From: a virus | Lineage: Duplodnaviria > Heunggongvirae > Uroviricota > Caudoviricetes | Length of the DNA: 53,943 nucleotides | Virus record (IMG/VR): IMGVR_UViG_2869947659_000002 | Reading direction: 5' to 3' (one strand) | Shown: positions 1,686 through 50,507 of the stretch, in pieces | How the letters are laid out: each line of letters begins with the position of its first letter | Position numbering within the stretch: position 1 is the stretch's first letter | Program-made: the position numbers and the translations under genes | The notes under the pieces: model-generated | The model's database searches: none | The model's input: only the letters and a program-made list of their open reading frames with translations | What the model was told of the DNA's origin: nothing

Positions 1686-1847
1686 GTCATAAACCGTTTT
1701 ACCCCGATGATCCCATCAGTAACAGACAACGGACCTGAAATAGTCCCTCCAGTTGTTGGCAGCGCTCCAATATCTGATGGTGTAGGTTTCTGATGTGAGC
1801 TATACATCGTATAAACAACACCATCGGTAACGCTGGTGGATTTGCCC

Positions 1848-2753
1848 CTATATTTCCAGACATCTGTTATCACTTAACCCATTACAAGCCCGCTGCCGCA
1901 GATATTCCCGTGGCGAGCGATAACCCAGCGCACTATGCGGATGCCATTCGTTATAATGTTCGAACGCCTCTGCAAGGTTCTTTGCTGCCGTTAACCCGTC
2001 TGGTTTGGGCATGATACTGATGTAGTCACGCTTTATCGTTTTCACGAAGCTCTCTGCTATTCCGTTACTCTCCGGACTCCGCACCGCCGTGTTCTTCGGT
2101 TCAAGTCCCAACATCCGGGCGAACTGGCGTGTTTCATTAGCCCGGTAGCATGAACCATTATCCGTCAGCCACTCCACTGGAGACGACGGAAGATCGTTGC
2201 CGAAGCGGCGTTCCACCGCACCCAGCATGACGTCCAGTACTGTTTCACTGTTGAAGCCGCCGGTAGTCACCGCCCAGTGCAGTGCCTCACGATCACAGCA
2301 GTCCAGCGCGAACGTGACACGCAGTCTCTCTCCGTTATCACAGCAGAACTCGAACCCGTCAGAGCACCATCGCTGATTGCTTTCTTTCACGGCCACTCTG
2401 CCTGTATGTGCCCGTTTCGATGGCGGTACAGCAGGTTTTCGCTCAAGCAACAGCGCATTCTGGCGCATGATCCGGTAAACACGTTTGGCATTGATCGCAG
2501 GCATACCATCAAGTTCTGCCTGTCTGCGAAGCAGCGCCCATACCCGACGATAACCATACGTGGGCAGCTCTCCGATAACATGGTGTATACGGAGAAGCAC
2601 ATCCGTATCATCAGTGTGACGACTGAGGCGGCCATCCATCCAGTCATCGGTTCGTCTGAGAATGACGTGCAACTGCGCACGCGACACCCGGAGACAACGG
2701 CTGACTAAGCTTACTCCCCATCCCCGGGCAATAAGGGCGCGTGCGCTATCCAC
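1848..2753 (-). CDS. insD: IS2 transposase OrfB (InsD)
   Basis: 301-aa ORF with IS3-family DDE transposase features; identical to the copy at 46075..46980. Confidence 0.95.
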
Positions 2754-3076
2754 TTTTTTGCCCGTCCATATTCAACGGCTTCTTTGAGGAGTTCATTTTC
2801 CATCGTTTTCTTGCCGAGCAGGCGCTGGAGTTCTTTAATCTGCTTCATGGCGGCAGCAAGTTCAGAGGCAGGAACAACCTGTTCTCCGGCGGCCACAGCA
2901 GTAAGACTTCCTTCCTGGTATTGCTTACGCCAGAGAAATAACTGGCTGGCTGCTACACCATGTTGCCGGGCAACGAGGGAGACCGTCATCCCCGGTTCAA
3001 AGCTCTGCTGAACAATTGCGATCTTTTCCTGTGTGGTACGCCGTCTGCGTTTCTCCGGCCCTAAGACATCAATCAT
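2711..3076 (-). CDS. insC: IS2 OrfA (InsC), HTH protein
   Basis: 121 aa from [18 protein letters not shown]; overlaps insD as expected for a -1 frameshift fusion. Confidence 0.9.
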
Positions 3077-3674
3077 CTGTACTCCAATGACTAGTCTAAA
3101 AACTAGTATTAAGACTATCACTTATTTAAGTGATACTGGTTGTCTGGAGATTCAGGGGGCCAGTCTAGCTGGAAGGCTTACTCGCTGAATATGTTAGCGA
3201 GGTATAAATAGAAACTGACGCATTTGTAGTACAATCCCAATGGATATTTACACTCGTCGCATAATTGCCAATCTCAACGTAAATATCATATATATCGCCG
3301 GATGTGTTGATCCAGGCGAAATTCGTTAATCCGACGGCTGTACGCTTCCACAAAGCTCCGGTAATCCCTTTGGGGTTTCCATTGCCTGCTCGTAGAACCA
3401 GTTCAGATATACCTGCCTGTTGAGGTGCCCCCACGTTAAATCCAGCGCCACCAATCAATGCGATGTAAACGATGGAACTCGCTTGTGGCATGGTAACCGT
3501 TGCCAGTTTGAACCACCCTGCCCCGCCAGAGAAAGAGATCGTTACTGAATTTAAAGTGCCAATATCTTTCGGTGTTAATGTTATATCCGCAGTCAGTGCT
3601 TTCCCGTTAACTTTTCGGTTAGATGGTACCCTGAGGTGTACTGGCAATAGCGGACACTACCATTTGTTCTTTTT

Positions 3675-4493
3675 TTAAGCAGCTATCTGATGATATTTTT
3701 CCCTGAAGGCTGCCGGGGAGATATTCCCCAGACGAGAGTGACGACGCTGACGATTGTAGAAAATCTCAATGTATTCCCGTATTACTGAGATGGCTTCATC
3801 CCGGTTATTAAAACGATAGTGGCTCAGGCTCTCATTTTTCAGCGTTCCCCAGAAGCTTTCCATCGGAGCGTTGTCGTAACAGTGACCTTTACGCGACATT
3901 GATGTTTTCAGACCAGACTGCTCCTGTATGACCCGGTAATCGTATGCGCAGTACTGTGAACCTCGATCAGAGTGGTGGATTAGCCCGGCAGGTGGGCGCT
4001 GGCTCCTGAGCGCCATAAACAGGGCTTTACCTGTCAGCTCTTTTGTCATGCGCTCTCCCATGGCGTAGCCGACAATTTCGCACGTATAAACATCTTTGAT
4101 GCCAGCGAGGTACAACCATCCCTCCTGTGTGGCAACATACGTCAGGTCCGCCACCCAGACCTGATTTGGTGCTGTAGGAGCGAACGTCTGGTTCAGCAGA
4201 TTTGGCGCAACTGGCAGATTGTGGTTCGGGTTCGTAGTCGCTCTGAACTTGCGTTTCTGCTTACAGCGTAGCCTTAGCTCCTTACGAAGACGTGCCAGTC
4301 GGTCACGACCAACGATGATGCCATTCTCTGCCAGCTCCGTCTGGAGCCGCCGGGTTCCATATGTTTCGCGAGTGCGGATATGTGCCACCTTAATCTCCAG
4401 TTTTAGCCGCTCATCACTTTGTTTTCTGTCTGAGGGTTCATGCTGTACCCAGTTGTAATAACCGCTCCTGGATACACCAAATACCTGACACAT
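3675..4493 (-). CDS. IS3-family transposase OrfB (DDE integrase domain)
   Basis: 272-aa ORF; same protein (one residue different at the C-terminus) as the copy at 48769..49587. Confidence 0.9.
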   Translation of the reverse strand: MCQVFGVSRSGYYNWVQHEPSDRKQSDERLKLEIKVAHIRTRETYGTRRLQTELAENGIIVGRDRLARLRKELRLRCKQKRKFRATTNPNHNLPVAPNLLNQTFAPTAPNQVWVADLTYVATQEGWLYLAGIKDVYTCEIVGYAMGERMTKELTGKALFMALRSQRPPAGLIHHSDRGSQYCAYDYRVIQEQSGLKTSMSRKGHCYDNAPMESFWGTLKNESLSHYRFNNRDEAISVIREYIEIFYNRQRRHSRLGNISPAAFREKYHQIAA

Positions 4494-4528
4494 CGCTTCA
4501 ATGGGAAATTGTTGTCGCCATTGTTCGA

Positions 4529-4831
4529 TTAACGCGTATTTTTCAGCGACTCCTGTGCAAAATACGCTGTTGCTTTTTTTAATATATCTCGCTCAAGGCG
4601 AGCTTCATTTAACGCCTTACGCAGTTGCAGAATTTCAGATTCCAGTTCAGCCACCGTGCGGGAACCAGGAGTACCGAGCCCTTTTCTGGCGGCGGTAACC
4701 CATTGTCCTAAAGTGCCTTCAGGAAGGGATAATCGGGAAGCGCCTTCACTGATCGAAAGTTGATTTTCAAGAACCGTTCTGACAGCTTCGGCTTTGAACT
4801 CTTTAGAGTAACGTTGGTTTTTTCTGCTCAT
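4529..4831 (-). CDS. IS3-family OrfA (HTH/leucine zipper)
   Basis: 100-aa ORF MSRKNQRYSKEFKAEAVRTVLENQLSISEGA...; identical to the copy at 48431..48733. Confidence 0.9.
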   Translation of the reverse strand: MSRKNQRYSKEFKAEAVRTVLENQLSISEGASRLSLPEGTLGQWVTAARKGLGTPGSRTVAELESEILQLRKALNEARLERDILKKATAYFAQESLKNTR

Positions 4832-6071
4832 TATTAGCTCCTTCTGATGCCATTCTATTTCAGGAAGGAGTGTCCGTTAAACTCAGGCTACCTCACCCTG
4901 CCATTCGCATTGTCATTCGCTGCTTTAACTGCCTTCGGTGTCGCGGCAAGCGTTTCAGATGTGCTGTTGGTTGCACTGCTGAGCTGTACTATCCCCTTTT
5001 TCGTCGTGCTCGCATCCTCAAGCGCCACGGCGGATGCAATATCCTCTGCCCGTTTTGCCGCTGTCTCGGCGCGCGTTGCCGCGGATTCCGCCGTACTTTT
5101 GCTCTGAGCTGCCGCCGTCACACTGCCAGCTGCCTCTGTCGCCTTCGTGGATGCCGTCGTGGCGCTGCCCTTTGCTGCTGACGCCTGTCTGGTCGCCTCA
5201 TCTTTTGAAGCAGACGCAGATGATGCCGATGACGCCGCCGAACTGGCGGACGATGCGGCAGCCGTTTTTGAGGATTCTGCGCTGGTTTCCGAGGCTTTCG
5301 CGTTCGTTTCGGATGTCTTCGCTGCCTCTTTTGAGGCCGCCGCATCCCGTGCTGAAGTGGCTGCTTCTGACGCTTTCGTGGTCGCGGTGGATGCAGAAGT
5401 GGCTGCTGATTGTTGTGACGCAGCCGCATTCGTTTCTGACGTTTTCGCCGCACCGGCACTGGTAGCCACCGCGCTTTTTGAGGACTCTGCAGCGGCAGCA
5501 CTTTTTGATGCTTCAGTAGCCTTTGTTGATGCCGTTCCTGCGCTGGAAGACGCTGACTGAGCCGACGTCGCGGCCTGCCCGGCTGATGTGCTGGCTGCAC
5601 GTGCTGAGCCTGCAGCATCAGTCGCATGGGTTGCCGCCTCACTGGCAGATATGCTGGCATCGCTGGCTGACTTCTTCGCGGCTGCCGTGTTCTGTGCAAC
5701 CGCGGAGGCGTTACGTGACACCTCTTCCACCATCTGCTCAAAGCGGCGCAGTGCCTCCGGTCGGACATCATCCTCCGTCATGGCACCGAGAAAATCATTC
5801 AGCGTACCTGGTCTGGAACCTTCATAGACGGTAATGGTCCCGGCATGTGAAGGCGGAAAACCTTCAACCAGCAGGGTGACGCTGTACTGGCCATGCTCAA
5901 CATCCATGCTGTAACGTCCGGCTTCATCCGGATTTTCAGAGGCCACCGTGTTCACCACCACCGTGCTGCTGGTTCGTCTGGCCTTCAGCACAATGGTGCA
6001 GTTCTGTACTGGTTTTCCTGTGCCATCTTTAAGCACGCCAGAAATTTTTACTGTCATACTTTTCCACCAAT

Positions 6072-9800: not shown

Positions 9801-10349
9801 CCTGACCATCCGGATGTTAAAGGGGCGGGGAGGCAGATTATCCAGAATCACCGAGGCCAGGAACTGTGAGGTGGTCTTGCCGTTAATGGTGACATCCTTT
9901 TCTGTCACCCAGTTACCGTTACGCTGTAACTGAATCAGCAGACGGACAGAGGACGGATTACGGTCACCCTTTGACGTGGTCTCCACCAGTGACTGCACCC
10001 CGAAGGTCACCCGCAGGCGGTCAATGTTCGCTGACGTAATGGTGCGTGTTACCGGTTTTGCCCTGGTCACTTCGACACCCAGTACAGTTTCAGAGCCGGA
10101 GGACTCAAAGCCTTCCGGTGGTGTCTGCTCCTGCTCCCCGGCACGCCAGACCGCGGTCACACCGTGTATCACGGGATTACCGTCCGTGTCCGTCAGCGGG
10201 GTTTTGTTCACCAGAATACTCTGCAGGCCTTTCACCGGGCCTTCTATCGGTCCCTCACCAATCGCATCAATCACGCTCATCATCTGCGTGGATTTGAGAT
10301 TGTCTTTCGCCTCACGCGGTGTGTGCGCCTTGCCGCCACCTTTGCCCAT
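6876..10349 (-). CDS. J: tail tip host-specificity protein J
   Basis: 1157 aa; N-terminus [39 protein letters not shown]... matches lambda gpJ. Confidence 0.95.
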
Positions 10350-12620: not shown

Positions 12621-12949
12621 CAGTTCACCACCTGCTTAAACTCCGCGCTGAACTCAACGCGCAACATCCCGACCCGCGCAGACCACCCGGCACAGGTCAC
12701 CTTTATCTGCCGGTATGCATAGGGTGGCTTCCACAAAAATGCCTTCCAGCCACCGTGCTCTGCCAGAAACGACTCCAGCGCCGTGGCCTCCTCACGGGAG
12801 ACAGACAGCGTCACGCTGTACGTTTTCAGGTCAGCGTTCAGCCCGGCAGGCGCACGCTGGGAATAGCCATCACCAAAGCGCACCTCCCTGACGGAAGGAG
12901 CCGATGTCACATCCATCCCGGGTTTCACTTTCCAGCGGAAGGTTTTCAT
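12620..12949 (-). CDS. M: minor tail protein M
   Basis: 109 aa, matches lambda gpM. Confidence 0.9.
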   Translation of the reverse strand: MKTFRWKVKPGMDVTSAPSVREVRFGDGYSQRAPAGLNADLKTYSVTLSVSREEATALESFLAEHGGWKAFLWKPPYAYRQIKVTCAGWSARVGMLRVEFSAEFKQVVN

Positions 12950-15519
12950 CGTCCACCTCCGGAGAACAGACCACCATCGCGCATCTGTGCCTGGATTTCA
13001 TCACGGGCACCCTTGCGGGCCATGTCATACACCGCCTTCATCATCTGTGGACCTGGCAGACCATTCGTACCGTCGTTCTGAATCACCACGTGATTGTTCT
13101 GATTAAAATTAATGCCTTCGGCCCGCCGCATTTGCGCCGGACTTCCGGTGCCACCGACATAACCGCCGGTGGCATAGCCGCGCATCAACCGGTAGAGATT
13201 TCCCACGCCAATCCGGCTGGTTGCCTCCTTCGTGAAGACAAATTCACCACGGTGAACAATCCCCGCTGGCTCATATTTGCCGCCGGTTCCCGTAAATCCT
13301 CCGGTTGCAAAATGGAATTTCGCCGCAGCGGCCTGAATGGCTGTACCGCCTGACGCGGATGCGCCGCCACCAACAGCCCCGCCAATAGCGCTGCCGATAC
13401 TCCCGACAATCCCCACCATTGCCTGCTTAAGCAGAATTTCTGTCATCATGGACAGCACGGAACGGGTGAAGCTGCGCCAGTTCTGTTCACTGCCGGTCAG
13501 CATCGCCGCCATATTCTGTGCAATACCATCAAAGGTCTGCGTGGCCGTGTTTTTAACCTGCGAAAAACTGTCCGTCGCACTTTCCGCCCACTCGCCCCAG
13601 CCGGACTTCATCCCGGCCATCCAGCTTCCACGAAGCTGCTCCTCCGCAGACCAGGTGTTCTTCAGTGCCGATGTGGCCTTCGCCAGCGCAGCCGGATTAT
13701 CACCGTACACCTCACGAAGGCGCTGCTCTTCCGACTCCCGCTGCGCCTGACGGTCGGTGAGGCCGCGGGCTTTTGCTCTGATTGCCGCCTGCTTCGCGCT
13801 TTGCTGCTGTTCAAACCGCGCCGCCTGCTGTGCCAGCTCATTCAGCCGCTTCTGGTGTTCAATCTTGTCTCCCAGCTCAGCCAGCTGGCGTTTGTACTCC
13901 AGCGTCTCTTTCTCATGAGCCAGCAGGGATTTTTCCTGCTCAGATAACTGCCGTTTCGTGGCGGCCTCTTTCAGGACCACATACTGATTTTCCGCTTTCC
14001 ATAAATCACGGCGCTGCTGGCTGATTTTTTCATTCGCACCGCTGTGCTTCTCCAGCGTCCTGAGCTCAGTTTCAAGCGCCAGCAGGGCTGCATGCGCCTG
14101 GTCTTCCTGGCGCTCACCGGCAGACACCTTCACACCGGACGGCTTTTTCTGCGTCGACTCATAATCCTTTTTTGCCGACGCCATCAGCGTGTTGTAATCC
14201 GCCTGCAGGATTTTCCCGTCTTTCAGGGCCTTATTCAGCTCTTCCTGCCGGGCGGTATATTTCTCCAGTGGCGTCAGCAGGCGCTCATACGCCTTCTGCG
14301 CCTCTCCGGTATACTTCAGCTGTGACGACTCACGCTCAGCCCTGTCCCTTGCCGCCAGTTCACCGGCTTTTTCCATATCCGACTGCAGCGTTACCGCTGC
14401 CAGACCCAGACGGGCATTTTCCCGGTCATCCCATGCGCCCTGAAGGTTGGCACGAAAAGAGGCGGTTTTTCCCCGGCGCTGGCTCCGGCTCTGGTACCAC
14501 TGCCATTTTTTATCCGCCTCATCAAATGCCTTCTGTGCACTGGCGAGCATATCCGCTGAGGACTCAGGACGACCGATATCCAGAATGGCATCCCACATCG
14601 ATTTGAATGCCTTCCCTGTTTTATCCGCCCAGGTCTCCAGTGTTCCCATGTTTTCTTTCAGGCGACGGGTCTGCTCATCAAAGCCTTTCGTGGCGATATC
14701 GTTCGCCGCCTGCAATGCCCCGGCCTCGTCTCCGGAACGCTGCAGCTGTGCAACATACGCAATCTGCTCTGCCGTCACGTTACGGAACTGGCGCGCCATC
14801 GCCATCAGTCCCGACGTCGGGTCAGTGGTCAGCTTCCCGAAGGCTTCAGCGACTTTATCCACCTCCACACCGGATGCAGACGCAAAACGCGCGACACTCT
14901 GGTTGATGGCATCAAACTGTTCACCACCACGCACACCGGCATTCACCAGGGCTGCCAGTGACTCTCTCGCCTGGTTAAACGTCAGCCCTGCTGCCTGCCC
15001 GGCTCTTGAGAGAGTCAGCATACGATCGGCAGTCAGTCCGGACTGATTACCGGAAAGAACCAGGGTTTTATTAAACGCTGAAAGCGTGGAATCTCCCTGG
15101 TACCAGGCGTACACCAGCGCACCTGTCGCCACCGCCAGCGAGGTGACCCCGACCATCGGCAGGGTGATCGCACCGGCGAGCCCCCTGAACATGGGGATCA
15201 TCCCGCCGAAGGAGTCCTTCACCTGACCGCCCTGTTGCAGCAGGATCAGCCAGGGATTCTGACCACCGGCAAGCTGCGTGGCGATATCCGTAAACTGTGC
15301 GGGCAGGGTTCGCATGGCCGCTTTATACTGCCCGACGGAAATCCCGGCTTTTTGTGCAGCCAGCGCCTGGCGGCTCAGGCCCTGTTCAACAGCACTGGCG
15401 GTTTTTCTGGCGTCGGTATCCAGACCTGAAAAATGACGCCTTACCCGGCTCATCTGCTCATCGAAACGGACAGCATCCAGACTCAGGTCAATAACAAGAT
15501 CACCAACCGGCTGGGACAT
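12946..15519 (-). CDS. H: tail tape measure protein H
   Basis: 857 aa, coiled-coil rich, lambda gpH-like. Confidence 0.95.
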   Translation of the reverse strand: MSQPVGDLVIDLSLDAVRFDEQMSRVRRHFSGLDTDARKTASAVEQGLSRQALAAQKAGISVGQYKAAMRTLPAQFTDIATQLAGGQNPWLILLQQGGQVKDSFGGMIPMFRGLAGAITLPMVGVTSLAVATGALVYAWYQGDSTLSAFNKTLVLSGNQSGLTADRMLTLSRAGQAAGLTFNQARESLAALVNAGVRGGEQFDAINQSVARFASASGVEVDKVAEAFGKLTTDPTSGLMAMARQFRNVTAEQIAYVAQLQRSGDEAGALQAANDIATKGFDEQTRRLKENMGTLETWADKTGKAFKSMWDAILDIGRPESSADMLASAQKAFDEADKKWQWYQSRSQRRGKTASFRANLQGAWDDRENARLGLAAVTLQSDMEKAGELAARDRAERESSQLKYTGEAQKAYERLLTPLEKYTARQEELNKALKDGKILQADYNTLMASAKKDYESTQKKPSGVKVSAGERQEDQAHAALLALETELRTLEKHSGANEKISQQRRDLWKAENQYVVLKEAATKRQLSEQEKSLLAHEKETLEYKRQLAELGDKIEHQKRLNELAQQAARFEQQQSAKQAAIRAKARGLTDRQAQRESEEQRLREVYGDNPAALAKATSALKNTWSAEEQLRGSWMAGMKSGWGEWAESATDSFSQVKNTATQTFDGIAQNMAAMLTGSEQNWRSFTRSVLSMMTEILLKQAMVGIVGSIGSAIGGAVGGGASASGGTAIQAAAAKFHFATGGFTGTGGKYEPAGIVHRGEFVFTKEATSRIGVGNLYRLMRGYATGGYVGGTGSPAQMRRAEGINFNQNNHVVIQNDGTNGLPGPQMMKAVYDMARKGARDEIQAQMRDGGLFSGGGR

Positions 15520-15913
15520 ATCTCACACCTCCCGGAATCCCCGCTGAAGCCATCATTAATGCGGCATCATCCACCATGACATCCGCCACATCCGCAGACG
15601 ATAAAATATCGCGCCCTCCGTCCCCACCGAACCGGACGCCTCCGGCAAGTCCTGCCGCTTTCTGCATCAGCATTTTGTCCTCATCCGGCCTCTCCACCTG
15701 CTCTTCCTCATGCCGGGGGACAAGCAGACTGAAATCAGAGGGATGCATATCCGGATCGCAAAAAAACAGGCTGAGTACAGCGTACGTCAGCCCGGAAAAA
15801 TGCATATCCAGCTGGGTATCCTGAAAATAATGCGTGCGGTAAAAACGGTGCCAGTCGGCATATTCGGTGGATGTCATCCCGGCAAGCATGGCGCGCCAGT
15901 CGGGTCTCCCCAT
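15500..15913 (-). CDS. T: tail assembly chaperone T segment (expressed as G-T fusion by -1 frameshift)
   Basis: ORF in -1 frame relative to G; reading from the slippery site gives ...VFDGELNFALRLAREMGRPDWRAM... Confidence 0.85.
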   Translation of the reverse strand: MGRPDWRAMLAGMTSTEYADWHRFYRTHYFQDTQLDMHFSGLTYAVLSLFFCDPDMHPSDFSLLVPRHEEEQVERPDEDKMLMQKAAGLAGGVRFGGDGGRDILSSADVADVMVDDAALMMASAGIPGGVRYVPAGW

Positions 15914-15939
15914 CTCACGCGCCAGTCTGAGGGCAAAGT

Positions 15940-16371
15940 TCAGCTCGCCGTCGAAGACTTTCCCGCAGAAAAATCATCATCAGTCAGCGTGTTATTTTTC
16001 GCCACTTCAGTAATATCAGTATCCGGACGAACAGCTTCGATCATCCCGGACAGGCACAACACCACGTCTTCCGCCCGGGCAATGGCATCGGCAGGCCAGG
16101 TGGTGAGCACTTCCTGCTCTATCTTCATCACGGCCTCATTCATTGACGGTGACTGCGTTTTCTGTGGATGGTTATGCCACAGGGACATCGCCACCAGAAA
16201 CGCGCCGGTTCTGACGAGATCTTCCACGCTTACCTGCAGGTTGCCGCAGGATTCTGCCTGTTCTGCACGCCGTTTCAGGAGGGCAAGATGCTCGATACGC
16301 TGCAGCGCAGACAATTCGGAAAGCGTGACAGACACACCGTTATATTCAAATTGTTCTGTTTTCAGAAACAT
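15940..16371 (-). CDS. G: tail assembly chaperone G
   Basis: 143 aa MFLKTEQFEYNGVSVTLSELSALQRIEHLALLKRRAEQAES..., lambda gpG-like. Confidence 0.9.
   Translation of the reverse strand: MFLKTEQFEYNGVSVTLSELSALQRIEHLALLKRRAEQAESCGNLQVSVEDLVRTGAFLVAMSLWHNHPQKTQSPSMNEAVMKIEQEVLTTWPADAIARAEDVVLCLSGMIEAVRPDTDITEVAKNNTLTDDDFSAGKSSTAS
15958..15964 (-). other. programmed -1 ribosomal frameshift site (G GGA AAG) for G-T
   Basis: Heptamer GGGAAAG in the G frame 6 codons before the G stop; T ORF continues in the -1 frame. Confidence 0.75.
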
Positions 16372-16384
16372 GTATTACCTCCGT

Positions 16385-17137
16385 TTACCCTGCAGCGCCC
16401 GCTTCAGTAACGGTGACTTCAGCCACTGCGGCGAACTGACCATTTCCGCTCACCACAGGGATCTGCACCTTACCTGTCGCCACGCCGTTTACCGTAATTG
16501 TCATATCTTTCACACTAATGGTGGCTTTCGACGGATCGGCGGAAACCGCTCTGAACGTCTTGTCGGTTGCACTTTCCGGCTCAAAAGAAACCGTCAGGGT
16601 GGTTGTTTTCCCTTTTGCCACCGTACCGGATGTCGGCGTCACCTTAATCGCACTGACCGGCGTAATTTTGCTGCGTTCTTCCGCTACAGAAGGTTTACCC
16701 ACGTTAGTGACTTTCACCGTGCGGGTGATCACTTCTTTCGCCGTCACGGCCTTACCGATACTGCTGACCCAGCCACGAAACACATCCACCGTGCCATTCG
16801 GAAAACGGATTTTATAGGCCCGGACATCGCCGCTTTCAAACCAGCCTATAAGCCCTTTCTGGCCTTCCTCTCCCGGTTTCCAGGCCAGCGTAAAACTGGT
16901 ATCACCTGCAGATTTCTGCCCCTGCCCGGTCGCGGTCCAGTCCGCGTCTTCATCATCCAGGTAGTTATCATCGTAGGATTCTGCCGTCATCTCGCCCGGC
17001 GTCAGATCCTTCACCTTAGCCAGTCGCTGCCAGTCATCGTCTGACAACGGGTTTGCATAAGCATCACCCTTGCCGTTGTAAACCCACAGAGTGGTACCGG
17101 CACCTTTTACCGGCTCAAGGGGATTTGGTGTTGCCAT
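16385..17137 (-). CDS. V: major tail protein V
   Basis: 250 aa, lambda gpV-like with C-terminal Ig-like region. Confidence 0.95.
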
Positions 17138-26469: not shown

Positions 26470-27537
26470 ATGAGTCAACATCAATATTATCCACAGCTGA
26501 AATGGAAGCCTGCTGAATATGAATCTCTGATGCTTTTAGATCAAACTACGCTCTCTGGTTTTACTCCGATCATTACCATTCCAGACATAGACTGGGATTA
26601 TGAAAACGAATGCTACAAGAAGAATTTGAGTTCTTACTTATCTGACTTCGGTATTAACCTTGCGGCATCCTGGAAAGCCAATCGTCCTGTTTTGCTGGAT
26701 GTTAAATATTTAGATAAACATGGTTCGAGCCGCCATCATCCTCTAGATATGTGTATCCAAGATGCTAGAGTAAATGGTAAGGAAATTATCCCTGTTGTTT
26801 CTCCCGCATATTCAACAAACTATATACATGCTGTTCAACGCAACTTAATCAATGGGCTCGCTATATCTATCACCCCCCAGACATGGCACCAATTCACAAG
26901 TCTGGTTAACCACTTAAATATTCATCCTAGTTTAATTGATGTAATCATTGATTTTGGAGATATTCAAAACGCAACTGATAGTTTAAAACAACAAGCATTA
27001 AGCATGGTCAACACATTATCAGGCCAAGCTCCGTGGAGAAACTTGATTTTATCTTCAACCGCATACCCGGCATCACAGGCAGGGATACCGCAACATCAAG
27101 TTCATCATATTCCGCGCCATGAATACGATCTTTGGATGTACGTAGTACAGAATTTTAGCAATGGAAGAACGCCAAGTTTTAGTGATTATCCCACCGCTAG
27201 CTCTACCATTACGAGCGTAGACCCACGCTTCATGTCTCAGTATGTCTCAGTGAGATATTCGAACGATACCTCATGGATCTTTGTAAAAGGTACCGCAGTT
27301 AAAGGAAATGGATGGGGCCAAACTAAAAACTTATGTACTACCCTTGTTAGTTCGCCAGAGTATCAAGTCTTTGGCTCCAAATTTAGTTGGGGGGATGATT
27401 ACATTTACCAAAGATCATTAGGCGCTAACAAATCTGGCGGCTCTAAAGAATGGCGTAAAGTTGCACATACGCACCATATTACGTTAGTCGTGAGACAGCT
27501 TTATTGGTTGGCGCAGACTCAGCCTGCCAAGCCTTAA
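26470..27537 (+). CDS. hypothetical protein (355 aa), cargo gene; candidate component of a two-gene module
   Basis: ATG with AAGGAG RBS 7 nt upstream; AT-richer than phage genes; no motif I can assign; 3' end overlaps the convergent gene 27479..28099 by 59 bp. Confidence 0.7.
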   Translation: MSQHQYYPQLKWKPAEYESLMLLDQTTLSGFTPIITIPDIDWDYENECYKKNLSSYLSDFGINLAASWKANRPVLLDVKYLDKHGSSRHHPLDMCIQDARVNGKEIIPVVSPAYSTNYIHAVQRNLINGLAISITPQTWHQFTSLVNHLNIHPSLIDVIIDFGDIQNATDSLKQQALSMVNTLSGQAPWRNLILSSTAYPASQAGIPQHQVHHIPRHEYDLWMYVVQNFSNGRTPSFSDYPTASSTITSVDPRFMSQYVSVRYSNDTSWIFVKGTAVKGNGWGQTKNLCTTLVSSPEYQVFGSKFSWGDDYIYQRSLGANKSGGSKEWRKVAHTHHITLVVRQLYWLAQTQPAKP

Positions 27538-28099
27538 CTTTCCAGCCTACGCGTTTCTTTAAGGCTGTTCTGACTTCAGGCCTGAGATTCGCTATTGGAA
27601 TATTTTCCGCAATAATATTCCATAACTCAAATCGGGGCTTGCTTTTGATTCCTTTGGAATAGCCCCATCGTTCAAGTACGTCGATACATTCATCTTTCCA
27701 AAGCAATTGAGCGAGCATCAATGTGTCATGGTTTCGATTAAGCTTTTCTCCACGCATGTGCTTTATAAGAATGGCGCCTTTTGGCCCAACAGAAACCGTT
27801 TTAACGCCCCACCAACCTGGGATTAACTTTAATGCTCCCTCAAGGTGTTTCTCAGCTACGACAAGAGTAACCTTGTCCATTACAGAAGAATAATGCTTGA
27901 TTTGAAGAGGCAAACGCTCCAAAGAGTCATATTCACTTTTGAGCTCGTACCCGTGTATAACACCATTTATTACAGCAATGTCTGCTCTACTGGCGCCAAG
28001 GGATATGGAAAATTCATCGACCACAAGGCAGTCTGGATCTAAATGCGATTCTTTCAAAAGCTTATGATGCACCGCGAACCTAACATCTTGATCTTTCAT
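27479..28099 (-). CDS. hypothetical protein (206 aa) with PD-(D/E)xK-like nuclease motif
   Basis: ATG with AAGGAG RBS; segment SRADIAVINGVIHGYELKSEYD fits the D...(E)xK restriction-endonuclease-fold signature; sits at the lambda bor position. Confidence 0.7.
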   Translation of the reverse strand: MKDQDVRFAVHHKLLKESHLDPDCLVVDEFSISLGASRADIAVINGVIHGYELKSEYDSLERLPLQIKHYSSVMDKVTLVVAEKHLEGALKLIPGWWGVKTVSVGPKGAILIKHMRGEKLNRNHDTLMLAQLLWKDECIDVLERWGYSKGIKSKPRFELWNIIAENIPIANLRPEVRTALKKRVGWKVKAWQAESAPTNKAVSRLT

Positions 28100-30244: not shown

Positions 30245-32101
30245 TTATGATGATGCTGGTGCATTTATCTCCAGCACCAGACTTTCTATCTCAACGCCAT
30301 ACGCTGCATTTTTGGTAATATCCGTCAGCGTCAGCGCATTCAGCCCCAGTGTCAGACTGTCTTTTATGACCTGGAATGCCGGGCCAGCCACTCCATTCAG
30401 TTTCGGAGTAACCGTGGCACTGCCGGCGGTGAACACCAGCTCCAGCGTCTGCCAGTCGTTACTGTAATTCCCGAACTCGCCCAACTTTGTGTTTCCTGCT
30501 TTCCTGTGATGCATCAGATTCAGTTTGCCGTCTGTGGTCTGGGTGAAGAACGACATCAGGAACGGGTTACCAGTCCCGGTCATCGCCACGACGTCAGGTA
30601 ACGCTACATCGGTATACAGATAAATTCCCAGACCGAACTGGTTGTTGGTCAGTGCGCCTGACAGTCGAAACTTACAGCTCAGTCTGCCACCCCGTGTCAG
30701 CAGGGAGACTGCGTCATCCACCGGATGCATCAGGGACCAGGTTTTATTGCTCTGCTTGGTAACCTTAAACACACCATCTTCCAGCGCAACACTGCCGCCG
30801 GTGATGGTCCAGCCCTGCGCAGCAGCCTCTCCGGCTGTCGGCAGCAGGGAGACTGTACGAACGGATGTGTCACCATCAGACGGCCCCGATGGAGTGTCGC
30901 CGCCGGGCGAGGGTTTGATTTCCGGTGCCTTACCACTAATGAAGGCTAAGGTGCGACCGGCTACGTTCAGAATAGCAGTTGCCATACGATCGGGAATAAT
31001 GCCACGACGCGCCCATGAGCTGAAATGCGTCGGGCGATTTGATGATACCCAGTTTTTGTTCGTTCGGGATGCCGAACCGTAATAACCAGACCCGGCAATA
31101 TCAGGATCTTCTGACGGGTTGTTTGTCGGTGTATTAACTCCGCTACCATCGGTCATAAAGGGAACAAAATAAATCTGCTGGGATTCTTTACCTTTATATG
31201 CACCATATACCACTTCATATTGCGTACCGTGTTCTTGTTTCCACGCGTATGTCGTGTCGCCACAAATCCAGGGGACTGATGCCGGACTTCCACCGTGACA
31301 CTGCGCCGCCAGCCCGGCAAGGTCAGCACGGAACTGCTGTACCATTGCAAGAAATGCTGCTGGCTGCTGGGCGTAACTGGCATTCGTCATATCGAATTCC
31401 CCCTGCATCCAGCATATCGCCAGCAAAACGTTTTTCGGGTTTTTCTGCAATGCTGCCTTCGTGCGGAAAAGCAGATCCTGATATAACGGCTTACCCACTC
31501 CCCAGCGAGCCGAATCCTGACTGGCCCCCGTGGACTCGCTGAATGTCCCCTCCGTGCCCTGGGTGAATGCCGAACCACCACGACAGCATGGTACCAGCAG
31601 GATCCCCGCGTTATTAGGGATATACGGAAGCAGTTTTTTGGCAATATGTAAGCCCTGTCCGACACAGCCGTACTGCCCTTTGCTCAGGTCAGCCCGGGGA
31701 TGGTTAATCGTACTCATATCCTGAACATCATGCAGACAATGGTCAGCAGGAATGATGTCGTTAAATACGCATACTTCACCACCGGGAGTCACTGTGTTAC
31801 GACGGGCCAGTTGCTTAATGCGCGGATGGGGCGCATCGTATGAATCCGGCAGCGGAAGCCCTTCACCGTAAGCCATGGCATTGGACTGCCCGGCCAGTAC
31901 GATGACGTAGTACCAATCCGGCTCAGTTGCACCACTGACCACCACATCACCTTCTGCTGCAATCGCCTGCATCAGGGTATAAGGGGTTATGGCCACCGGA
32001 CTACCAAACGGCTGCCAGCCCTCCTTCAGTTTTTGTGTCAGTCGTTTCGCAAGGTCTGACGGCGATACCGCCCTGACCACGTCATAGTGTTTAAATGCCA
32101 T
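30245..32101 (-). CDS. prophage 9-O-acetyl-sialate esterase (NanS-p-like, SGNH/SASA domain)
   Basis: 618 aa; N-terminal small domain, then YVIVLAGQSNAMAYGE (GQSN esterase motif); strong RBS GGGAGGA; same slot as nanS-p downstream of stx in Stx phages. Confidence 0.85.
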   Translation of the reverse strand: MAFKHYDVVRAVSPSDLAKRLTQKLKEGWQPFGSPVAITPYTLMQAIAAEGDVVVSGATEPDWYYVIVLAGQSNAMAYGEGLPLPDSYDAPHPRIKQLARRNTVTPGGEVCVFNDIIPADHCLHDVQDMSTINHPRADLSKGQYGCVGQGLHIAKKLLPYIPNNAGILLVPCCRGGSAFTQGTEGTFSESTGASQDSARWGVGKPLYQDLLFRTKAALQKNPKNVLLAICWMQGEFDMTNASYAQQPAAFLAMVQQFRADLAGLAAQCHGGSPASVPWICGDTTYAWKQEHGTQYEVVYGAYKGKESQQIYFVPFMTDGSGVNTPTNNPSEDPDIAGSGYYGSASRTNKNWVSSNRPTHFSSWARRGIIPDRMATAILNVAGRTLAFISGKAPEIKPSPGGDTPSGPSDGDTSVRTVSLLPTAGEAAAQGWTITGGSVALEDGVFKVTKQSNKTWSLMHPVDDAVSLLTRGGRLSCKFRLSGALTNNQFGLGIYLYTDVALPDVVAMTGTGNPFLMSFFTQTTDGKLNLMHHRKAGNTKLGEFGNYSNDWQTLELVFTAGSATVTPKLNGVAGPAFQVIKDSLTLGLNALTLTDITKNAAYGVEIESLVLEINAPASS

Positions 32102-45543: not shown

Positions 45544-45751
45544 AAAGTGAATTTTGTGATGTGGTGAATGCGGCTGAGCGCACGCGGAACAGTTAAAACC
45601 AAAAACAGTGTTATGGGTGGATTCTCTGTATCCGGCGTTAATTGTTAACTGGTTAACGTCTAGACTGGCCCCCTGAATCTCCAGACAACCAGTATCACTT
45701 AAATAAGTGATAGTCTTAATACTAGTTTTTAGACTAGTCATTGGAGTACAG

Positions 45752-46117
45752 ATGATTGATGTCTTAGGGCCGGAGAAACGCAGACGGCGTACCACACAGG
45801 AAAAGATCGCAATTGTTCAGCAGAGCTTTGAACCGGGGATGACGGTCTCCCTCGTTGCCCGGCAACATGGTGTAGCAGCCAGCCAGTTATTTCTCTGGCG
45901 TAAGCAATACCAGGAAGGAAGTCTTACTGCTGTGGCCGCCGGAGAACAGGTTGTTCCTGCCTCTGAACTTGCTGCCGCCATGAAGCAGATTAAAGAACTC
46001 CAGCGCCTGCTCGGCAAGAAAACGATGGAAAATGAACTCCTCAAAGAAGCCGTTGAATATGGACGGGCAAAAAAGTGGATAGCGCACGCGCCCTTATTGC
46101 CCGGGGATGGGGAGTAA
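45752..46117 (+). CDS. insC: IS2 OrfA (InsC)
   Basis: Identical to copy 1 InsC. Confidence 0.9.
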
Positions 46118-46980
46118 GCTTAGTCAGCCGTTGTCTCCGGGTGTCGCGTGCGCAGTTGCACGTCATTCTCAGACGAACCGATGACTGGATGGATGGCCGC
46201 CTCAGTCGTCACACTGATGATACGGATGTGCTTCTCCGTATACACCATGTTATCGGAGAGCTGCCCACGTATGGTTATCGTCGGGTATGGGCGCTGCTTC
46301 GCAGACAGGCAGAACTTGATGGTATGCCTGCGATCAATGCCAAACGTGTTTACCGGATCATGCGCCAGAATGCGCTGTTGCTTGAGCGAAAACCTGCTGT
46401 ACCGCCATCGAAACGGGCACATACAGGCAGAGTGGCCGTGAAAGAAAGCAATCAGCGATGGTGCTCTGACGGGTTCGAGTTCTGCTGTGATAACGGAGAG
46501 AGACTGCGTGTCACGTTCGCGCTGGACTGCTGTGATCGTGAGGCACTGCACTGGGCGGTGACTACCGGCGGCTTCAACAGTGAAACAGTACTGGACGTCA
46601 TGCTGGGTGCGGTGGAACGCCGCTTCGGCAACGATCTTCCGTCGTCTCCAGTGGAGTGGCTGACGGATAATGGTTCATGCTACCGGGCTAATGAAACACG
46701 CCAGTTCGCCCGGATGTTGGGACTTGAACCGAAGAACACGGCGGTGCGGAGTCCGGAGAGTAACGGAATAGCAGAGAGCTTCGTGAAAACGATAAAGCGT
46801 GACTACATCAGTATCATGCCCAAACCAGACGGGTTAACGGCAGCAAAGAACCTTGCAGAGGCGTTCGAGCATTATAACGAATGGCATCCGCATAGTGCGC
46901 TGGGTTATCGCTCGCCACGGGAATATCTGCGGCAGCGGGCTTGTAATGGGTTAAGTGATAACAGATGTCTGGAAATATAG
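46075..46980 (+). CDS. insD: IS2 transposase OrfB (InsD)
   Basis: Identical to copy 1 InsD. Confidence 0.95.
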
Positions 46981-47048
46981 GGGCAAATCCAACGTCACCT
47001 GGAGGCACCAGGCACCGCATCACAAAATTCATTGTTGAGGACGCGATA

Positions 47049-47237
47049 ATGAAAACGTTATTACCAAACGTTAATACGTCTGAAGGTTGTTTTGAAATTG
47101 GTGTCACTATCAGTAACCCAGCATTTACTGAAGATGCCATTAACAAGAGAAAACAAGAACGGGAGCTATTAAATAAAATATGCATTGTTTCAATGCTGGC
47201 TCGTTTACGTCTGATGCCAAAAGGATGTGCACAATGA
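47049..47237 (+). CDS. dicB: cell division inhibitor DicB
   Basis: MKTLLPNVNTSEGCFEIGVTISNPAFTEDAINKRKQERELLNKICIVSMLARLRLMPKGCAQ (62 aa); six-frame ORF starts inside IS2. Confidence 0.85.
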   Translation: MKTLLPNVNTSEGCFEIGVTISNPAFTEDAINKRKQERELLNKICIVSMLARLRLMPKGCAQ

Positions 47238-47425
47238 ATTCAGCATTTGTGCTTGTTCTGACAGTTTTTCTTGTTTCCGGAGAGCCAGTTGATATTGCAG
47301 TCAGTGTTCACAGGACAATGCAGGAGTGTATGACTGCAGCAACCGAACAGAAAATTCCCGGTAACTGTTACCCGGTCGATAAAGTTATTCACCAGGATAA
47401 TATCGAAATCCCGGCAGGTCTTTAA
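47234..47425 (+). CDS. ydfD: small secreted/lysis-associated protein YdfD-like
   Basis: MNSAFVLVLTVFLVSGEPVDIAVSVHRTMQECMTAATEQKIPGNCYPVDKVIHQDNIEIPAGL; ATG overlaps the dicB stop. Confidence 0.75.
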   Translation: MNSAFVLVLTVFLVSGEPVDIAVSVHRTMQECMTAATEQKIPGNCYPVDKVIHQDNIEIPAGL

Positions 47426-48430
47426 AACAGTTCCGTAATAAATATCCGGTTTCATTCTTATATGCCAGCAATGGCAGGGATTTGTTCATCCTTAAATCTG
47501 TCATGAGGTTAAAACAAATGAGTAAAGTCTTTATTTGCGCCGCTATTCCTGACGAACTGGCAACAAGGGAAGAAGGCGCTGTGGCTGTAGCCACAGCCAT
47601 TGAAGCTGGCGACGAACGCCGTGCTCGAGCAAAATTTCACTGGCAATTCCTGGAACATTATCCGGCTGCTCAGGACTGCGCTTATAAATTTATTGTCTGC
47701 GAGGATAAACCTGGCATACCCCGCCCTGCCCTCGATTCATGGGATGCTGAATATATGCAGGAAAACCGCTGGGATGAGGATTCTGCTTCTTTTGTCCCGG
47801 TTGAGACTGAATCCGATCTGATGAACGTCACTTTTGACAAGCTGGCCCCTGAAGTACAGAACGCTCTCATGGTTAAGTTCGACACATGTGAAAACATCAC
47901 CGTTGATATGGTTATTAGCGCACAGGAATTGTTGCAGGAAGACATGGCAACATTCGACGGCCATATCGTTGAAGCGTTGATGAAAATGCCAGAAGTTAAC
48001 GCCATGTATCCGGAGCTTAAGTTGCATGCCATTGGGTGGGTTAAGCATAAATGTATTCCTGGTGCTAAATGGCCCGAAATTCAGGCAGAGATGCGCATCT
48101 GGAAAAAACGTCGTGAAGGTGAACGCAAGGAAACCGGAAAATACACGTCTGTTGTTGATCTTGCCCGCGCCAGAGCCAATCAACAGTACACTGAAAATTC
48201 AACAGGAAAAATCAGCCCGGTCATTGCTGCCATTCATCGCGAATACAAGCAGACATGGAAAACACTGGATGACGAACTGGCCTACGCTCTCTGGCCTGGT
48301 GATGTGGATGCCGGAAACATTGACGGCAGCATCCATCGCTGGGCAAAAAATGAAGTTATCGACAACTGAGGTAGCCTGAGTTTAACGGACACTCCTTCCT
48401 GAAATAGAATGGCATCAGAAGGAGCTAATA

Positions 48431-48733
48431 ATGAGCAGAAAAAACCAACGTTACTCTAAAGAGTTCAAAGCCGAAGCTGTCAGAACGGTTCTTGAAAATC
48501 AACTTTCGATCAGTGAAGGCGCTTCCCGATTATCCCTTCCTGAAGGCACTTTAGGACAATGGGTTACCGCCGCCAGAAAAGGGCTCGGTACTCCTGGTTC
48601 CCGCACGGTGGCTGAACTGGAATCTGAAATTCTGCAACTGCGTAAGGCGTTAAATGAAGCTCGCCTTGAGCGAGATATATTAAAAAAAGCAACAGCGTAT
48701 TTTGCACAGGAGTCGCTGAAAAATACGCGTTAA
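48431..48733 (+). CDS. IS3-family OrfA
   Basis: Identical to 4529..4831. Confidence 0.9.
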   Translation: MSRKNQRYSKEFKAEAVRTVLENQLSISEGASRLSLPEGTLGQWVTAARKGLGTPGSRTVAELESEILQLRKALNEARLERDILKKATAYFAQESLKNTR

Positions 48734-48768
48734 TCGAACAATGGCGACAACAATTTCCCATTGAAGCG

Positions 48769-49587: not shown

Positions 49588-50170
49588 AAAAAGAACAAAT
49601 GGTAGTGTCCGCTATTGCCAGTACACCTCAAACGACCGCGAAGACTGGAAGCGTATCTCGGCATCAATGCGCAAACAGCCTGATGTCCTTCGCTACGACC
49701 GCCAGACTATTTTTGGCCTTGTCCGTGAACGTCCGATCGACATTCACAAAGACCCTGTGGCACTGAACAAATACATTACTGAATACCTGACTACAAAGGG
49801 CGTGTTTGAAGATGAAGGAAGAAATCAGAGCGCAACTGATACTCTCTCGTCGCCAGTACCAGAAACTGATGCAGTGGAAACGGCAATTCCGGACAACGAA
49901 AAAACCGAATGCAAAGTGGAAGTCGAACCATCTGTAGAGCGTGAGGGGCCGTTCTACTTCCTCTTCACCGACAAGGATGGCGAAAAATACAGTCGCGCAA
50001 ACAAACTTTCTGGTCTGGATAAGGCGCTGGCTGCCGGGGCAACTGAAATCACGAAAGAAGAATATTTTGCCCGCAAAAACGGCACATACACAGGTTCACA
50101 ACAAAATGAGGTAGCCTGAGTTTAACGGACACTCCTTCCTGAAATAGAATGGCATCAGAAGGAGCTAATA

Positions 50171-50458: not shown

Positions 50459-50507
50459 AAAATACGCGTTAATCGAACAATGGCGACAACAATTTCCCAT
50501 TGAAGCG

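What the first reader, a model, noticed from the sequence alone, without database searches (positions are those of the whole stretch)
15940..15964. Conserved G-T programmed frameshift site
The heptamer G GGA AAG lies 6 codons before the G stop and the T ORF continues in the -1 frame, as in lambda. This supports the tail chaperone module being intact even though the tail fiber is degraded.
Basis: partly seen in the sequence, partly recalled or inferred. Interest (0 to 1): 0.2.

Follow-up and report, generated by a model that had tools for sequence, protein, structure and literature searches.

The report
Lambda-type G–T tail chaperone frameshift site
This is the well-known "slippery" sequence at which about one ribosome in 25–30 slips back one base to make the longer of two tail-assembly helper proteins of lambda-like phages; it is intact here, in a prophage that is otherwise peppered with insertion sequences, and it is ordinary.

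Summary
On the minus strand, gene G (16371..15940, 143 aa) carries G GGA AAG (15964..15958) in the X_XXY_YYZ register, followed by five sense codons and TGA, exactly as in lambda. The -1 frame is closed by three tandem TGA codons just upstream. It then runs 154 codons from the heptamer to a TGA at 15502..15500, overlapping the tape-measure gene H. The predicted 290-aa fusion matches the NCBIfam equivalogs for lambda G and lambda T and is 71% identical to lambda gpGT. The 921-nt region is 100% identical in many E. coli genomes. All 18 relatives checked, in 8 distinct upstream sequence contexts and down to about 39% T identity, keep a slippery heptamer at the same codon (G GGA AAG, G GAA AAG or A AAA AAG). 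This is the known programmed -1 ribosomal frameshift of lambdoid tail assembly chaperones and is not novel. One loose end is a predicted RNA structure 7-8 nt downstream of the heptamer, shared by the lambda/phi80/N15 clades, with some covariation. It may modulate slippage but is unproven.

The parts
15940..16371 (-). Gene G (tail assembly chaperone gpG, 143 aa), translated in the 0 frame. GGAGG Shine-Dalgarno at 16382..16378, 6 nt before the ATG.
   Evidence: ORF and translation. Pfam Phage_TAC_2 3e-50. NCBIfam equivalog phage_lambda_G, 163 bits against a cut-off of 74. RefSeq names the identical sequence gpG.
15958..15964 (-). Slippery heptamer G GGA AAG (X_XXY_YYZ), the site of the -1 tandem tRNA slip. 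Gly-Lys is encoded in both frames.
   Evidence: Register computed. Aligned to lambda's heptamer. A slippery heptamer occupies the homologous codon in all 18 relatives checked (8 distinct upstream sequence contexts).
15940..15942 (-). G stop codon TGA, five sense codons after AAG. It lies inside the conserved CTG-A of the T-frame motif G-E-L.
   Evidence: 13 of 18 relatives keep the stop at this position; in the other five it comes earlier.
15974..15982 (-). Three tandem TGA codons in the -1 frame (from GAT GAT GAT in the G frame). They close the T frame 3 codons upstream of the heptamer. No start codon lies between them and the slip site.
   Evidence: Read from the sequence. The upstream stop was computed.
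15500..15958 (-). T-specific coding segment (-1 frame), 152 codons plus the stop TGA at 15502..15500. It is expressed only as the C-terminal part of the 290-aa gpGT fusion (16371..15958 joined to 15958..15500).
   Evidence: Pfam Phage_tail_T 1e-13. NCBIfam equivalog phage_lam_T, 209 bits against a cut-off of 77. 71% identity to lambda gpGT over 286 aa.
15880..15950 (-). Predicted RNA structure beginning 7-8 nt 3' of the heptamer. An outer stem CGGCGAGC/GCUUGCCG encloses a GC-rich hairpin. It is a possible modulator of slippage and is unproven.
   Evidence: MFE -40.5 kcal/mol, z -4.3. The same architecture appears in the lambda, phi80 and N15 clades.
12946..15519 (-). Gene H (tape measure protein, 857 aa), the partner of gpG/gpGT. 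Its ATG at 15519 overlaps the end of T by 20 nt.
   Evidence: Pfam TMP_2 4e-69 and Tape_meas_lam_C 3e-21. ORF.
16385..17137 (-). Gene V (major tail tube protein, 250 aa), the partner of the T domain.
   Evidence: Pfam Phage_TTP_12 2e-69 and Big_2.

Best explanation
This is the programmed -1 ribosomal frameshift site of a lambda-type tail assembly chaperone gene pair in a lambdoid prophage. Most ribosomes translate G from its own Shine-Dalgarno sequence and ATG and stop at TGA 15942..15940, giving gpG (143 aa). A few per cent (about 4% in lambda) slip while decoding G GGA AAG. The P-site tRNA-Gly re-pairs from GGA to GGG and the A-site tRNA-Lys (anticodon mnm5s2UUU) re-pairs from AAG to AAA. 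Those ribosomes continue in the -1 frame for 152 more codons and give gpGT (290 aa). By analogy with lambda, many gpG copies and a few gpGT copies coat the tape measure protein H through the G domain. The T domain recruits the tail tube protein V, so that the tube polymerises to the length set by H. Neither chaperone remains in the finished tail. Shown here: the sequence anatomy, the homology, the gene order and the conservation. Inferred from work on lambda: the slip itself, its frequency and the chaperone role.
For: The heptamer is in the correct register, with the same distance to the stop as in lambda. The -1 frame is open for 154 codons and is closed by three TGA codons immediately upstream, with no start codon in between. 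The fusion matches NCBIfam equivalogs phage_lambda_G (residues 1-138) and phage_lam_T (143-252), both far above cut-off, and the corresponding Pfam families. It is 71% identical to lambda gpGT. The gene order V-G-T-H-M-L is that of lambda. The slip-site flank TTTCTGCGGGAAAGT is invariant between the window and lambda, although the 60 nt upstream have diverged with indels. Eighteen relatives (8 distinct upstream sequence contexts; several records are near-identical to one another), including phi80, N15, HK225, mEp460, Fels-1, Gifsy-1 and a Klebsiella phage, all carry G GGA AAG, G GAA AAG or A AAA AAG at the same codon, with the -1 frame open for 115-154 codons. Several of those records annotate it as the frameshift site. 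The only in-frame ATG near the start of T (15913, used by PGAP) is a Phe codon in the phi80, N15 and Gifsy-type relatives, so no independent start is conserved. The mechanism and role are as reviewed in PMC5009743, PMC3296357 and PMC7618472.
Against: There is no expression data for this locus. The prophage carries five IS copies and may not be inducible, so the site may currently be silent. The efficiency of slippage here is unknown. The codon after the heptamer differs from lambda (GTC/TCT against GTG/TGT), and the downstream structure is predicted to be somewhat more stable than in lambda. Either could shift the gpG:gpGT ratio.
Confidence: 0.93

Rival explanations
1. T is a separate gene translated from its own ATG at 15913 (137 aa), as RefSeq/PGAP and some GenBank phage records annotate it. 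On this view the heptamer is irrelevant.
For: The ATG-initiated ORF 15913..15500 exists. It is annotated as 'phage tail assembly protein T' in RefSeq genomes and as a separate CDS in PhiR12_1.
Against: There is no Shine-Dalgarno sequence at a usable distance before that ATG (the sequence is ...CTGGCGCGTGAG ATG). The Met codon is Phe in the phi80, N15, mEp460, Fels-1 and Gifsy-1 T sequences, while the 17 codons between the heptamer and this Met are conserved as protein (GK[VA][FL]..EL.F.[LM].LARE). That conservation makes no sense for untranslated sequence. The NCBIfam T equivalog model begins at fusion residue 143, 14 residues upstream of that Met. The reviews report that lambda T is made only as the fusion.
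Confidence: 0.03
2. The site is intact only by recent descent. The prophage is a decaying remnant, so the G-T module is no longer expressed or selected in this host.
For: There are five IS copies in 54 kb. The side tail fibre is destroyed and the early/recombination region (45.6-51.4 kb) holds three IS elements. No complete E. coli genome holds the first 12 kb of the window (the tail-fibre/IS end) contiguously.
Against: Every head and tail ORF from Nu1 to J has full length. The G-T region is 100% identical to that of many E. coli prophages. It is 99.3% identical to the PhiR12 phage records, whose listed hosts are laboratory strains (E. coli K-12 MG1655 and E. coli C). This rival concerns present activity, not what the element is.
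Confidence: 0.25
3. The heptamer is a chance occurrence, or the frame change is made by RNA polymerase slippage rather than by the ribosome.
For: GGGAAAG occurs at chance frequency in the window (7 copies against 7.8 expected).
Against: Position, register and flanking ORF geometry match lambda exactly, and the position is kept in 18 of 18 relatives (8 distinct upstream contexts). A run of only three A residues is, from established knowledge of slippage sites, far too short for transcriptional slippage.
Confidence: 0.01

Closest known systems
Bacteriophage lambda G / G-T programmed -1 frameshift (Levin, Hendrix and Casjens 1993; Xu, Hendrix and Duda 2004, 2013, 2014, as cited in PMC5009743)
   Same: The heptamer G GGA AAG, its register and the five sense codons before the G stop are identical. 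The -1 frame T ORF ends inside H. The gene order is V-G-T-H. The fusion protein is 71% identical.
   Different: G is 3 aa longer and its C-terminal 25 residues have diverged (two in-frame indels). T is 8 aa longer overall (a 4-aa insert plus 4 extra C-terminal residues). T therefore overlaps H by 20 nt rather than 8. The codon after the slip is GTC, not the GTG once taken as a T start in lambda.
G-T sites of phi80, N15, HK225, mEp213, LLS, Gifsy-1 and Fels-1 (G GAA AAG) and of Stx1 and ASU11-type phages (A AAA AAG)
   Same: The slip is at the homologous codon. The T N-terminus is conserved (GK..EL.F...LARE.GRPDWR), and so is the position between the tail tube and tape measure genes.
   Different: The heptamer variant differs. 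The G modules are unrelated at the DNA level: nucleotide similarity to the window begins within about 25 nt of the heptamer.
IS3-family transposase orfA-orfB -1 frameshift (IS2 and IS600, both present in this same window) and E. coli dnaX
   Same: A -1 tandem slip on a heptamer ending in AAG or AAA and decoded by tRNA-Lys.
   Different: From established knowledge, those sites work with defined stimulators (an upstream Shine-Dalgarno-like element and/or a downstream stem-loop) and at higher efficiency. [quoted passage not shown]

Membership tests
Lambda-type tail assembly chaperone pair with programmed -1 frameshift (gpG/gpGT) | Two overlapping ORFs lying between the major tail (tube) protein gene and the tape measure gene | tested here: met
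   V 16385..17137, G 15940..16371, T frame 15500..15973 and H 12946..15519 are all on the minus strand.
Lambda-type tail assembly chaperone pair with programmed -1 frameshift (gpG/gpGT) | [quoted passage not shown] | tested here: met
   G GGA AAG at 15964..15958, at index 407 of G (407 mod 3 = 2), with 5 sense codons before the stop.
Lambda-type tail assembly chaperone pair with programmed -1 frameshift (gpG/gpGT) | Downstream ORF in the -1 frame, open through the slip site and lacking its own conserved start codon and ribosome binding site | tested here: met
   The -1 frame is open for 154 codons. Three TGA codons lie 3 codons upstream with no start codon between them and the heptamer. The first ATG (15913) has no Shine-Dalgarno sequence and is not conserved in relatives.
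Lambda-type tail assembly chaperone pair with programmed -1 frameshift (gpG/gpGT) | Sequence homology of both parts to lambda gpG and gpT | tested here: met
   TIGR01674 at 163 bits (cut-off 74) and TIGR01715 at 209 bits (cut-off 77). PF06894 and PF06223. 71% identity to lambda gpGT.
Lambda-type tail assembly chaperone pair with programmed -1 frameshift (gpG/gpGT) | Slip site conserved at the homologous position across diverged relatives | tested here: met
   18 of 18 relatives (8 distinct upstream sequence contexts), down to about 39% T identity, carry G GGA AAG, G GAA AAG or A AAA AAG at the same codon.
Lambda-type tail assembly chaperone pair with programmed -1 frameshift (gpG/gpGT) | Production of a G-T fusion protein at a few per cent of gpG, required for tail assembly | not testable with these tools
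   This needs protein expression or mass spectrometry. It is known for lambda (PMC5009743, PMC3296357).
Stimulator-dependent bacterial -1 frameshift sites (dnaX / IS3 type) | Shine-Dalgarno-like element about 10-14 nt upstream of the heptamer | tested here: not met
   The upstream sequence is ACTGATGATGATTTTTCTGC, which has no GGAGG- or AGGA-like element.
Stimulator-dependent bacterial -1 frameshift sites (dnaX / IS3 type) | Stable RNA structure starting 5-9 nt downstream of the heptamer that raises slippage | tested here: inconclusive
   A structure is predicted from 7-8 nt downstream (z -4.3), with some covariation and more stability than synonymous recodings. It is absent in the mEp460/Fels-1/Gifsy-1 clade, and its effect on slippage is untested.

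The most novel reading that the evidence does not exclude
The lambda-type G-T frameshift is treated in the literature as a stimulator-free slip. It may instead be tuned by a conserved mRNA structure that begins 7-8 nt after the heptamer (window 15950..15880, minus strand). In it an 8-10 bp outer stem encloses a GC-rich hairpin formed by the codons for LAREMGRPDWRA. The structure is predicted in the lambda, phi80 and N15 clades. One outer-stem pair occurs as A-U, G-C and C-G in different phages. The native sequences fold more stably than synonymous recodings of the same protein.
Probability: 0.25. Interest if true: 0.4.

Novelty: already known. Interest (0 to 1): 0.08.

Why it matters
The finding matters little in itself. 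It confirms that the tail-chaperone module of this prophage is sequence-intact and that the textbook lambda G-T recoding signal is present. Practically, it shows that automatic annotation of 'T' as a separate 137-aa protein starting at an internal ATG is wrong for this family, and that the gene should be annotated as a joined G-T CDS. The only item of wider interest is the possible downstream RNA structure. If real, it would revise the view that tailed-phage G-T frameshifting needs no stimulatory signal. It would also offer a handle on how the roughly 30:1 gpG:gpGT ratio is set.

Tried and rejected
1. Chance occurrence was rejected. The heptamer count alone is uninformative, but register, ORF geometry and homology are decisive.
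2. Independent initiation of T at ATG 15913 was rejected, because there is no Shine-Dalgarno sequence and the Met is not conserved.
3. An Rfam search of 15300-16600 at E<=1 gave only a spurious lncRNA hit, so no described RNA family covers the site.
4. The search for related loci with the T peptide in viral contigs returned 80 loci that were all 99-100% identical, which was useless for measuring diversity.
5. The genome-contig scan with G returned mostly lambda-identical low-coverage contigs in unrelated genera, probably lambda DNA contamination. Only E. albertii, E. coli and Escherichia sp. E1V33 were informative.
6. Attempts to read Levin et al. 1993, Xu et al. 2004 and Xu et al. 2013 failed because they are not held. 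What those papers say about downstream sequence requirements could not be checked. My recollection that Levin et al. saw some dependence on downstream sequence is unverified.
7. A PDB sequence search with gpGT found no solved relative.
8. RNAalifold on all 15 sequences recovered only part of the structure, because the mEp460/Fels-1/Gifsy-1 clade does not share it.

Full report
**1. Observation**

The finding's coordinates (15940-15964, + strand) cover, on the minus strand, the last 25 nt of a 143-codon ORF (16371..15940). The minus strand reads ...TTT TCT GCG GGA AAG TCT TCG ACG GCG AGC TGA.
- The heptamer GGGAAAG occupies 15964..15958. It starts at index 407 of the ORF (407 mod 3 = 2), so it is read G|GGA|AAG, the X_XXY_YYZ register needed for a tandem -1 slip.
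- AAG is followed by five sense codons and then TGA.
- Lambda's G gene (J02459 9711-10133) has the same heptamer at 10109-10115, in the same register and at the same distance from its stop.
- The -1 frame read from the first G of the heptamer is open for 154 codons, to TGA at 15502..15500.

The only correction is that the genes lie on the minus strand.

**2. More than chance?**

The heptamer alone is not informative: the window has 7 copies against 7.8 expected. The combination of features is specific.
- I scanned all 409 XXXYYYZ (Y = A or T) heptamers on both strands. The test was a long 0-frame ORF ending soon after the site, a -1 frame closed just upstream, and a -1 frame open for a long stretch downstream.
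- The genuine hits are this site and the four orfA-orfB frameshift sites of the IS2 and IS600 copies in the window. Other entries in the list are cases where the '-1 frame' is simply the real gene.
- Three tandem TGA codons in the -1 frame (15982..15974, produced by GAT GAT GAT in the G frame) lie 3 codons upstream of the heptamer, with no start codon between.
- The T frame can therefore be entered only by slippage or at the internal ATG 15913.

**3. Identity**
- The conceptual fusion (290 aa) matches NCBIfam equivalog phage_lambda_G over residues 1-138 (163 bits, cut-off 74) and phage_lam_T over residues 143-252 (209 bits, cut-off 77).
- It also matches Pfam Phage_TAC_2 (3e-50) and Phage_tail_T (1e-13).
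- It is 71% identical to lambda gpGT over 286 residues.
- The flanking genes are lambda V (tail tube; Phage_TTP_12), U and Z upstream, and H (tape measure; TMP_2 plus Tape_meas_lam_C) downstream. This gives the canonical order V-G-T-H-M-L.
- The 921-nt G-T region is 100% identical in many complete E. coli genomes, including the type strain ATCC 11775. RefSeq there names the genes 'phage tail assembly chaperone G' and 'phage tail assembly protein T'.
- It is 99.3% identical in the PhiR12 phage records and 75.5% identical to lambda.

**4. Conservation of the signal**

In the window-lambda alignment the 60 nt before the slip site have diverged heavily, with two in-frame indels, yet TTTCTGCGGGAAAGT is invariant. 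I extracted the junction from 18 relatives, which fall into 8 distinct upstream sequence contexts (several records are near-identical to one another).

| Heptamer | Phages or genomes |
|---|---|
| G GGA AAG | lambda, PhiR12_1, E. albertii, an E. coli strain, Escherichia sp. E1V33 |
| G GAA AAG | phi80, mEp213, LLS, Klebsiella phage Kp4865-4, N15, HK225, Enterobacter phage MStein, mEp460, 569R4, Fels-1, Gifsy-1 |
| A AAA AAG | ASU11, an Stx1 phage |

- In every one a slippery heptamer ending AAAG sits at the homologous codon.
- The 0-frame stops 1 or 5 sense codons after the heptamer's last codon (AAG), the -1 frame is closed 3-20 codons upstream, and the -1 frame is open for 115-154 codons downstream.
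- The T N-terminus begins GK(V/A)(F/L)..EL.F in all of them, including the 17 codons that precede the window's internal ATG. That Met is Phe in the phi80, N15 and Gifsy-type sequences.
- Protein-level conservation upstream of the only candidate start, together with non-conservation of that start, argues against independent initiation of T.
- Several GenBank records (N15, phi80, LLS) annotate the heptamer as the frameshift site.

**5. Mechanism**

Steps shown here are the sequence anatomy, the homology, the synteny and the conservation. The following steps are inferred from lambda.
- Low-level -1 frameshifting links the synthesis of gpG and gpGT at a molar ratio of about 30:1.
- gpG and the G part of gpGT bind the tape measure protein. 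The T domain binds the major tail protein and recruits it to polymerise around the tape measure. Neither chaperone is in the virion (review PMC5009743).
- About 96% of ribosomes stay in frame. The Lys codons of both frames are read by tRNA-Lys(UUU), whose U34 thiolation restrains slippage. Disturbing the gpG:gpGT ratio lowers phage yield (PMC3296357; PMC7618472).

Transcriptional slippage is implausible on a run of three A residues (established knowledge).

**6. Context claim**

Comparison with the ATCC 11775 prophage shows that the side tail fibre gene is broken.
- Window 4888..6057 encodes only the N-terminal 389 aa (phage_tail_N plus one fibre repeat).
- It is followed by a 1264-bp IS600 (3632-4895), a 400-nt stf remnant (3229-3631), and a 1332-bp IS2 (1837-3168).
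- Next comes sequence matching the 3' part of tfa and beyond. About 1 kb is missing.
- The central fibre J (1157 aa, all six gpJ Pfam domains) and lom (listed only as a 199-aa ORF) are intact.
- M and L are full-length ORFs of lambda's size; K and I were seen only as ORFs of the expected size.

So 'tail fibre degraded, chaperone module intact' is right, with the qualification that only the dispensable side fibre is affected. Lambda PaPa itself lacks functional side fibres (from memory).

The window holds two further IS600 copies and one further IS2 copy at 45660-51371, in the early region. No complete E. coli genome holds the first 12 kb of the window (the tail-fibre/IS end) contiguously. This IS load suggests a Shigella-like host (inference), and the prophage may not be inducible.

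**7. A loose end: downstream RNA structure**

Folding the 90 nt after the heptamer gives a stable structure beginning 7-8 nt downstream. It has an outer stem (CGGCGAGC with GCUUGCCG) enclosing a GC-rich hairpin. The MFE is -40.5 kcal/mol with z = -4.3 against dinucleotide shuffles. For lambda the values are -38.7 kcal/mol and z = -2.5.

Evidence in favour:
- The same architecture is the MFE fold in lambda, E1V33, mEp213, Kp4865-4, LLS, MStein, N15, HK225 and the Stx1 phage; phi80 (at 90 nt) and ASU11 keep at least the inner hairpin.
- On a 15-sequence ungapped alignment, 83.9% of cells pair, against 22-44% when partners are slid by 1-3 columns.
- One outer-stem pair occurs as A-U (7), G-C (5) and C-G (2). 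Another occurs as C-G (7), U-G (5) and G-U (2).
- The covariation score is 0.144, against 0.02-0.08 for the slid controls.
- Native sequences are more stable than synonymous recodings of the same peptide in 9 of 12 homologues (z from -1.8 to -3.3). A control segment further into T averages near zero.
- Synonymous differences are somewhat rarer in the structured segment than further downstream (25% against 36%).

Evidence against or limiting:
- The structure was derived from one of the tested sequences.
- The sequences are related, and the peptide is highly conserved.
- The mEp460/Fels-1/Gifsy-1 clade does not share the fold.
- RNAalifold recovers only part of it.
- The review literature states that such phage shifts 'seem not to involve stimulatory signals' (PMC5009743).
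- No Rfam family matches the region.

I rate this a lead, with a probability of about 0.25 that it is a functional modulator.

**8. Verdict**

This is a correct identification of a long-known element: the lambda-family G-T programmed -1 frameshift. It is present here in a sequence shared identically by many E. coli prophages. Novelty is 'already known' and interest is low.

Noticed in passing
window 15880-15950 (-): A predicted conserved RNA structure starts 7-8 nt 3' of the G-T heptamer. It is shared by the lambda, phi80 and N15 clades, shows some compensatory pair changes, and is more stable than synonymous recodings. The literature treats this frameshift as stimulator-free.
   Followed up: partly
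window 15500-15913 (-); L003 20488-20901; L002 3484-3873: RefSeq/PGAP and the PhiR12 GenBank records annotate T as a stand-alone CDS starting at an internal ATG. That ATG has no Shine-Dalgarno sequence and is not conserved in relatives. The joined G-T frameshift product is not annotated in those records.
   Followed up: yes
window 15958-15985 (-), compared with phi80, mEp213, LLS and Kp4865-4 (L103-L106): Nucleotide similarity to phi80-type phages begins within about 25 nt of the heptamer (query positions 413-437 onward). The G modules have been exchanged while the T N-terminus is shared, so a mosaic joint sits at the recoding site.
   Followed up: partly
window 1837-3168, 3632-4895, 45660-46991, 48367-49630, 50104-51371: There are two IS2 copies and three IS600 copies. 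One IS600 and one IS2 interrupt the side tail fibre gene stf and remove about 1 kb (stf C-terminus and tfa N-terminus). The other three sit in the prophage early region. Four of them carry their own orfA-orfB -1 slip sites (A AAA AAG at 2759(-) and 46069(+); A AAA AAA at 4580(-) and 48682(+)).
   Followed up: partly
window 26470-27537 (+) and 27479-28099 (-): A convergent gene pair lies between the terminase small subunit gene and the lysis cassette. It is absent from the ATCC 11775 prophage. One is a 355-aa Pfam 'Beta_protein' matching the PADLOC model PD-Lambda-2_C (6e-32). The other is a 206-aa protein matching PADLOC 'cll' (4e-31). This is a possible anti-phage defence moron.
   Followed up: partly
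window 30245-32101 (-): A 618-aa protein has DUF1737, a SASA sialate O-acetylesterase domain and DUF6645. It lies upstream of the holin gene. From memory this resembles the NanS-p esterases of Stx phages. No stx genes were seen.
   Followed up: no
L006-L018, L020-L022 (genome-contig hits): Lambda-like G-T sequence (most hits about 69% identical to the window G, as lambda is; the partial hits range from 64 to 81%) turns up on short contigs, several at about 1x coverage, in assemblies of Neobacillus, Pseudomonas, Shewanella, Kitasatospora, Chromatium and others. This is almost certainly lambda DNA contamination of those assemblies.
   Followed up: no
hit H127, MW057783.1 'Campylobacter phage CJLB-4' (48,361 bp): This record has a T region as similar to the window as lambda's is, at roughly the same coordinates as in lambda (10028-10291).
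   Followed up: no
window 15500-15519 (-): T ends 20 nt inside H (...GGVRYVPAGW*), compared with an 8-nt overlap in lambda (...GGVRYG*). T therefore carries four extra C-terminal residues here.
   Followed up: yes
whole window: No complete E. coli genome among 5,426 holds the first 12 kb of the window (the tail-fibre/IS end) contiguously; the best coverage is 78%. An E. albertii contig has an identical G. Together with the IS600/IS2 load this suggests a Shigella or a similarly IS-rich Escherichia host.
   Followed up: partly
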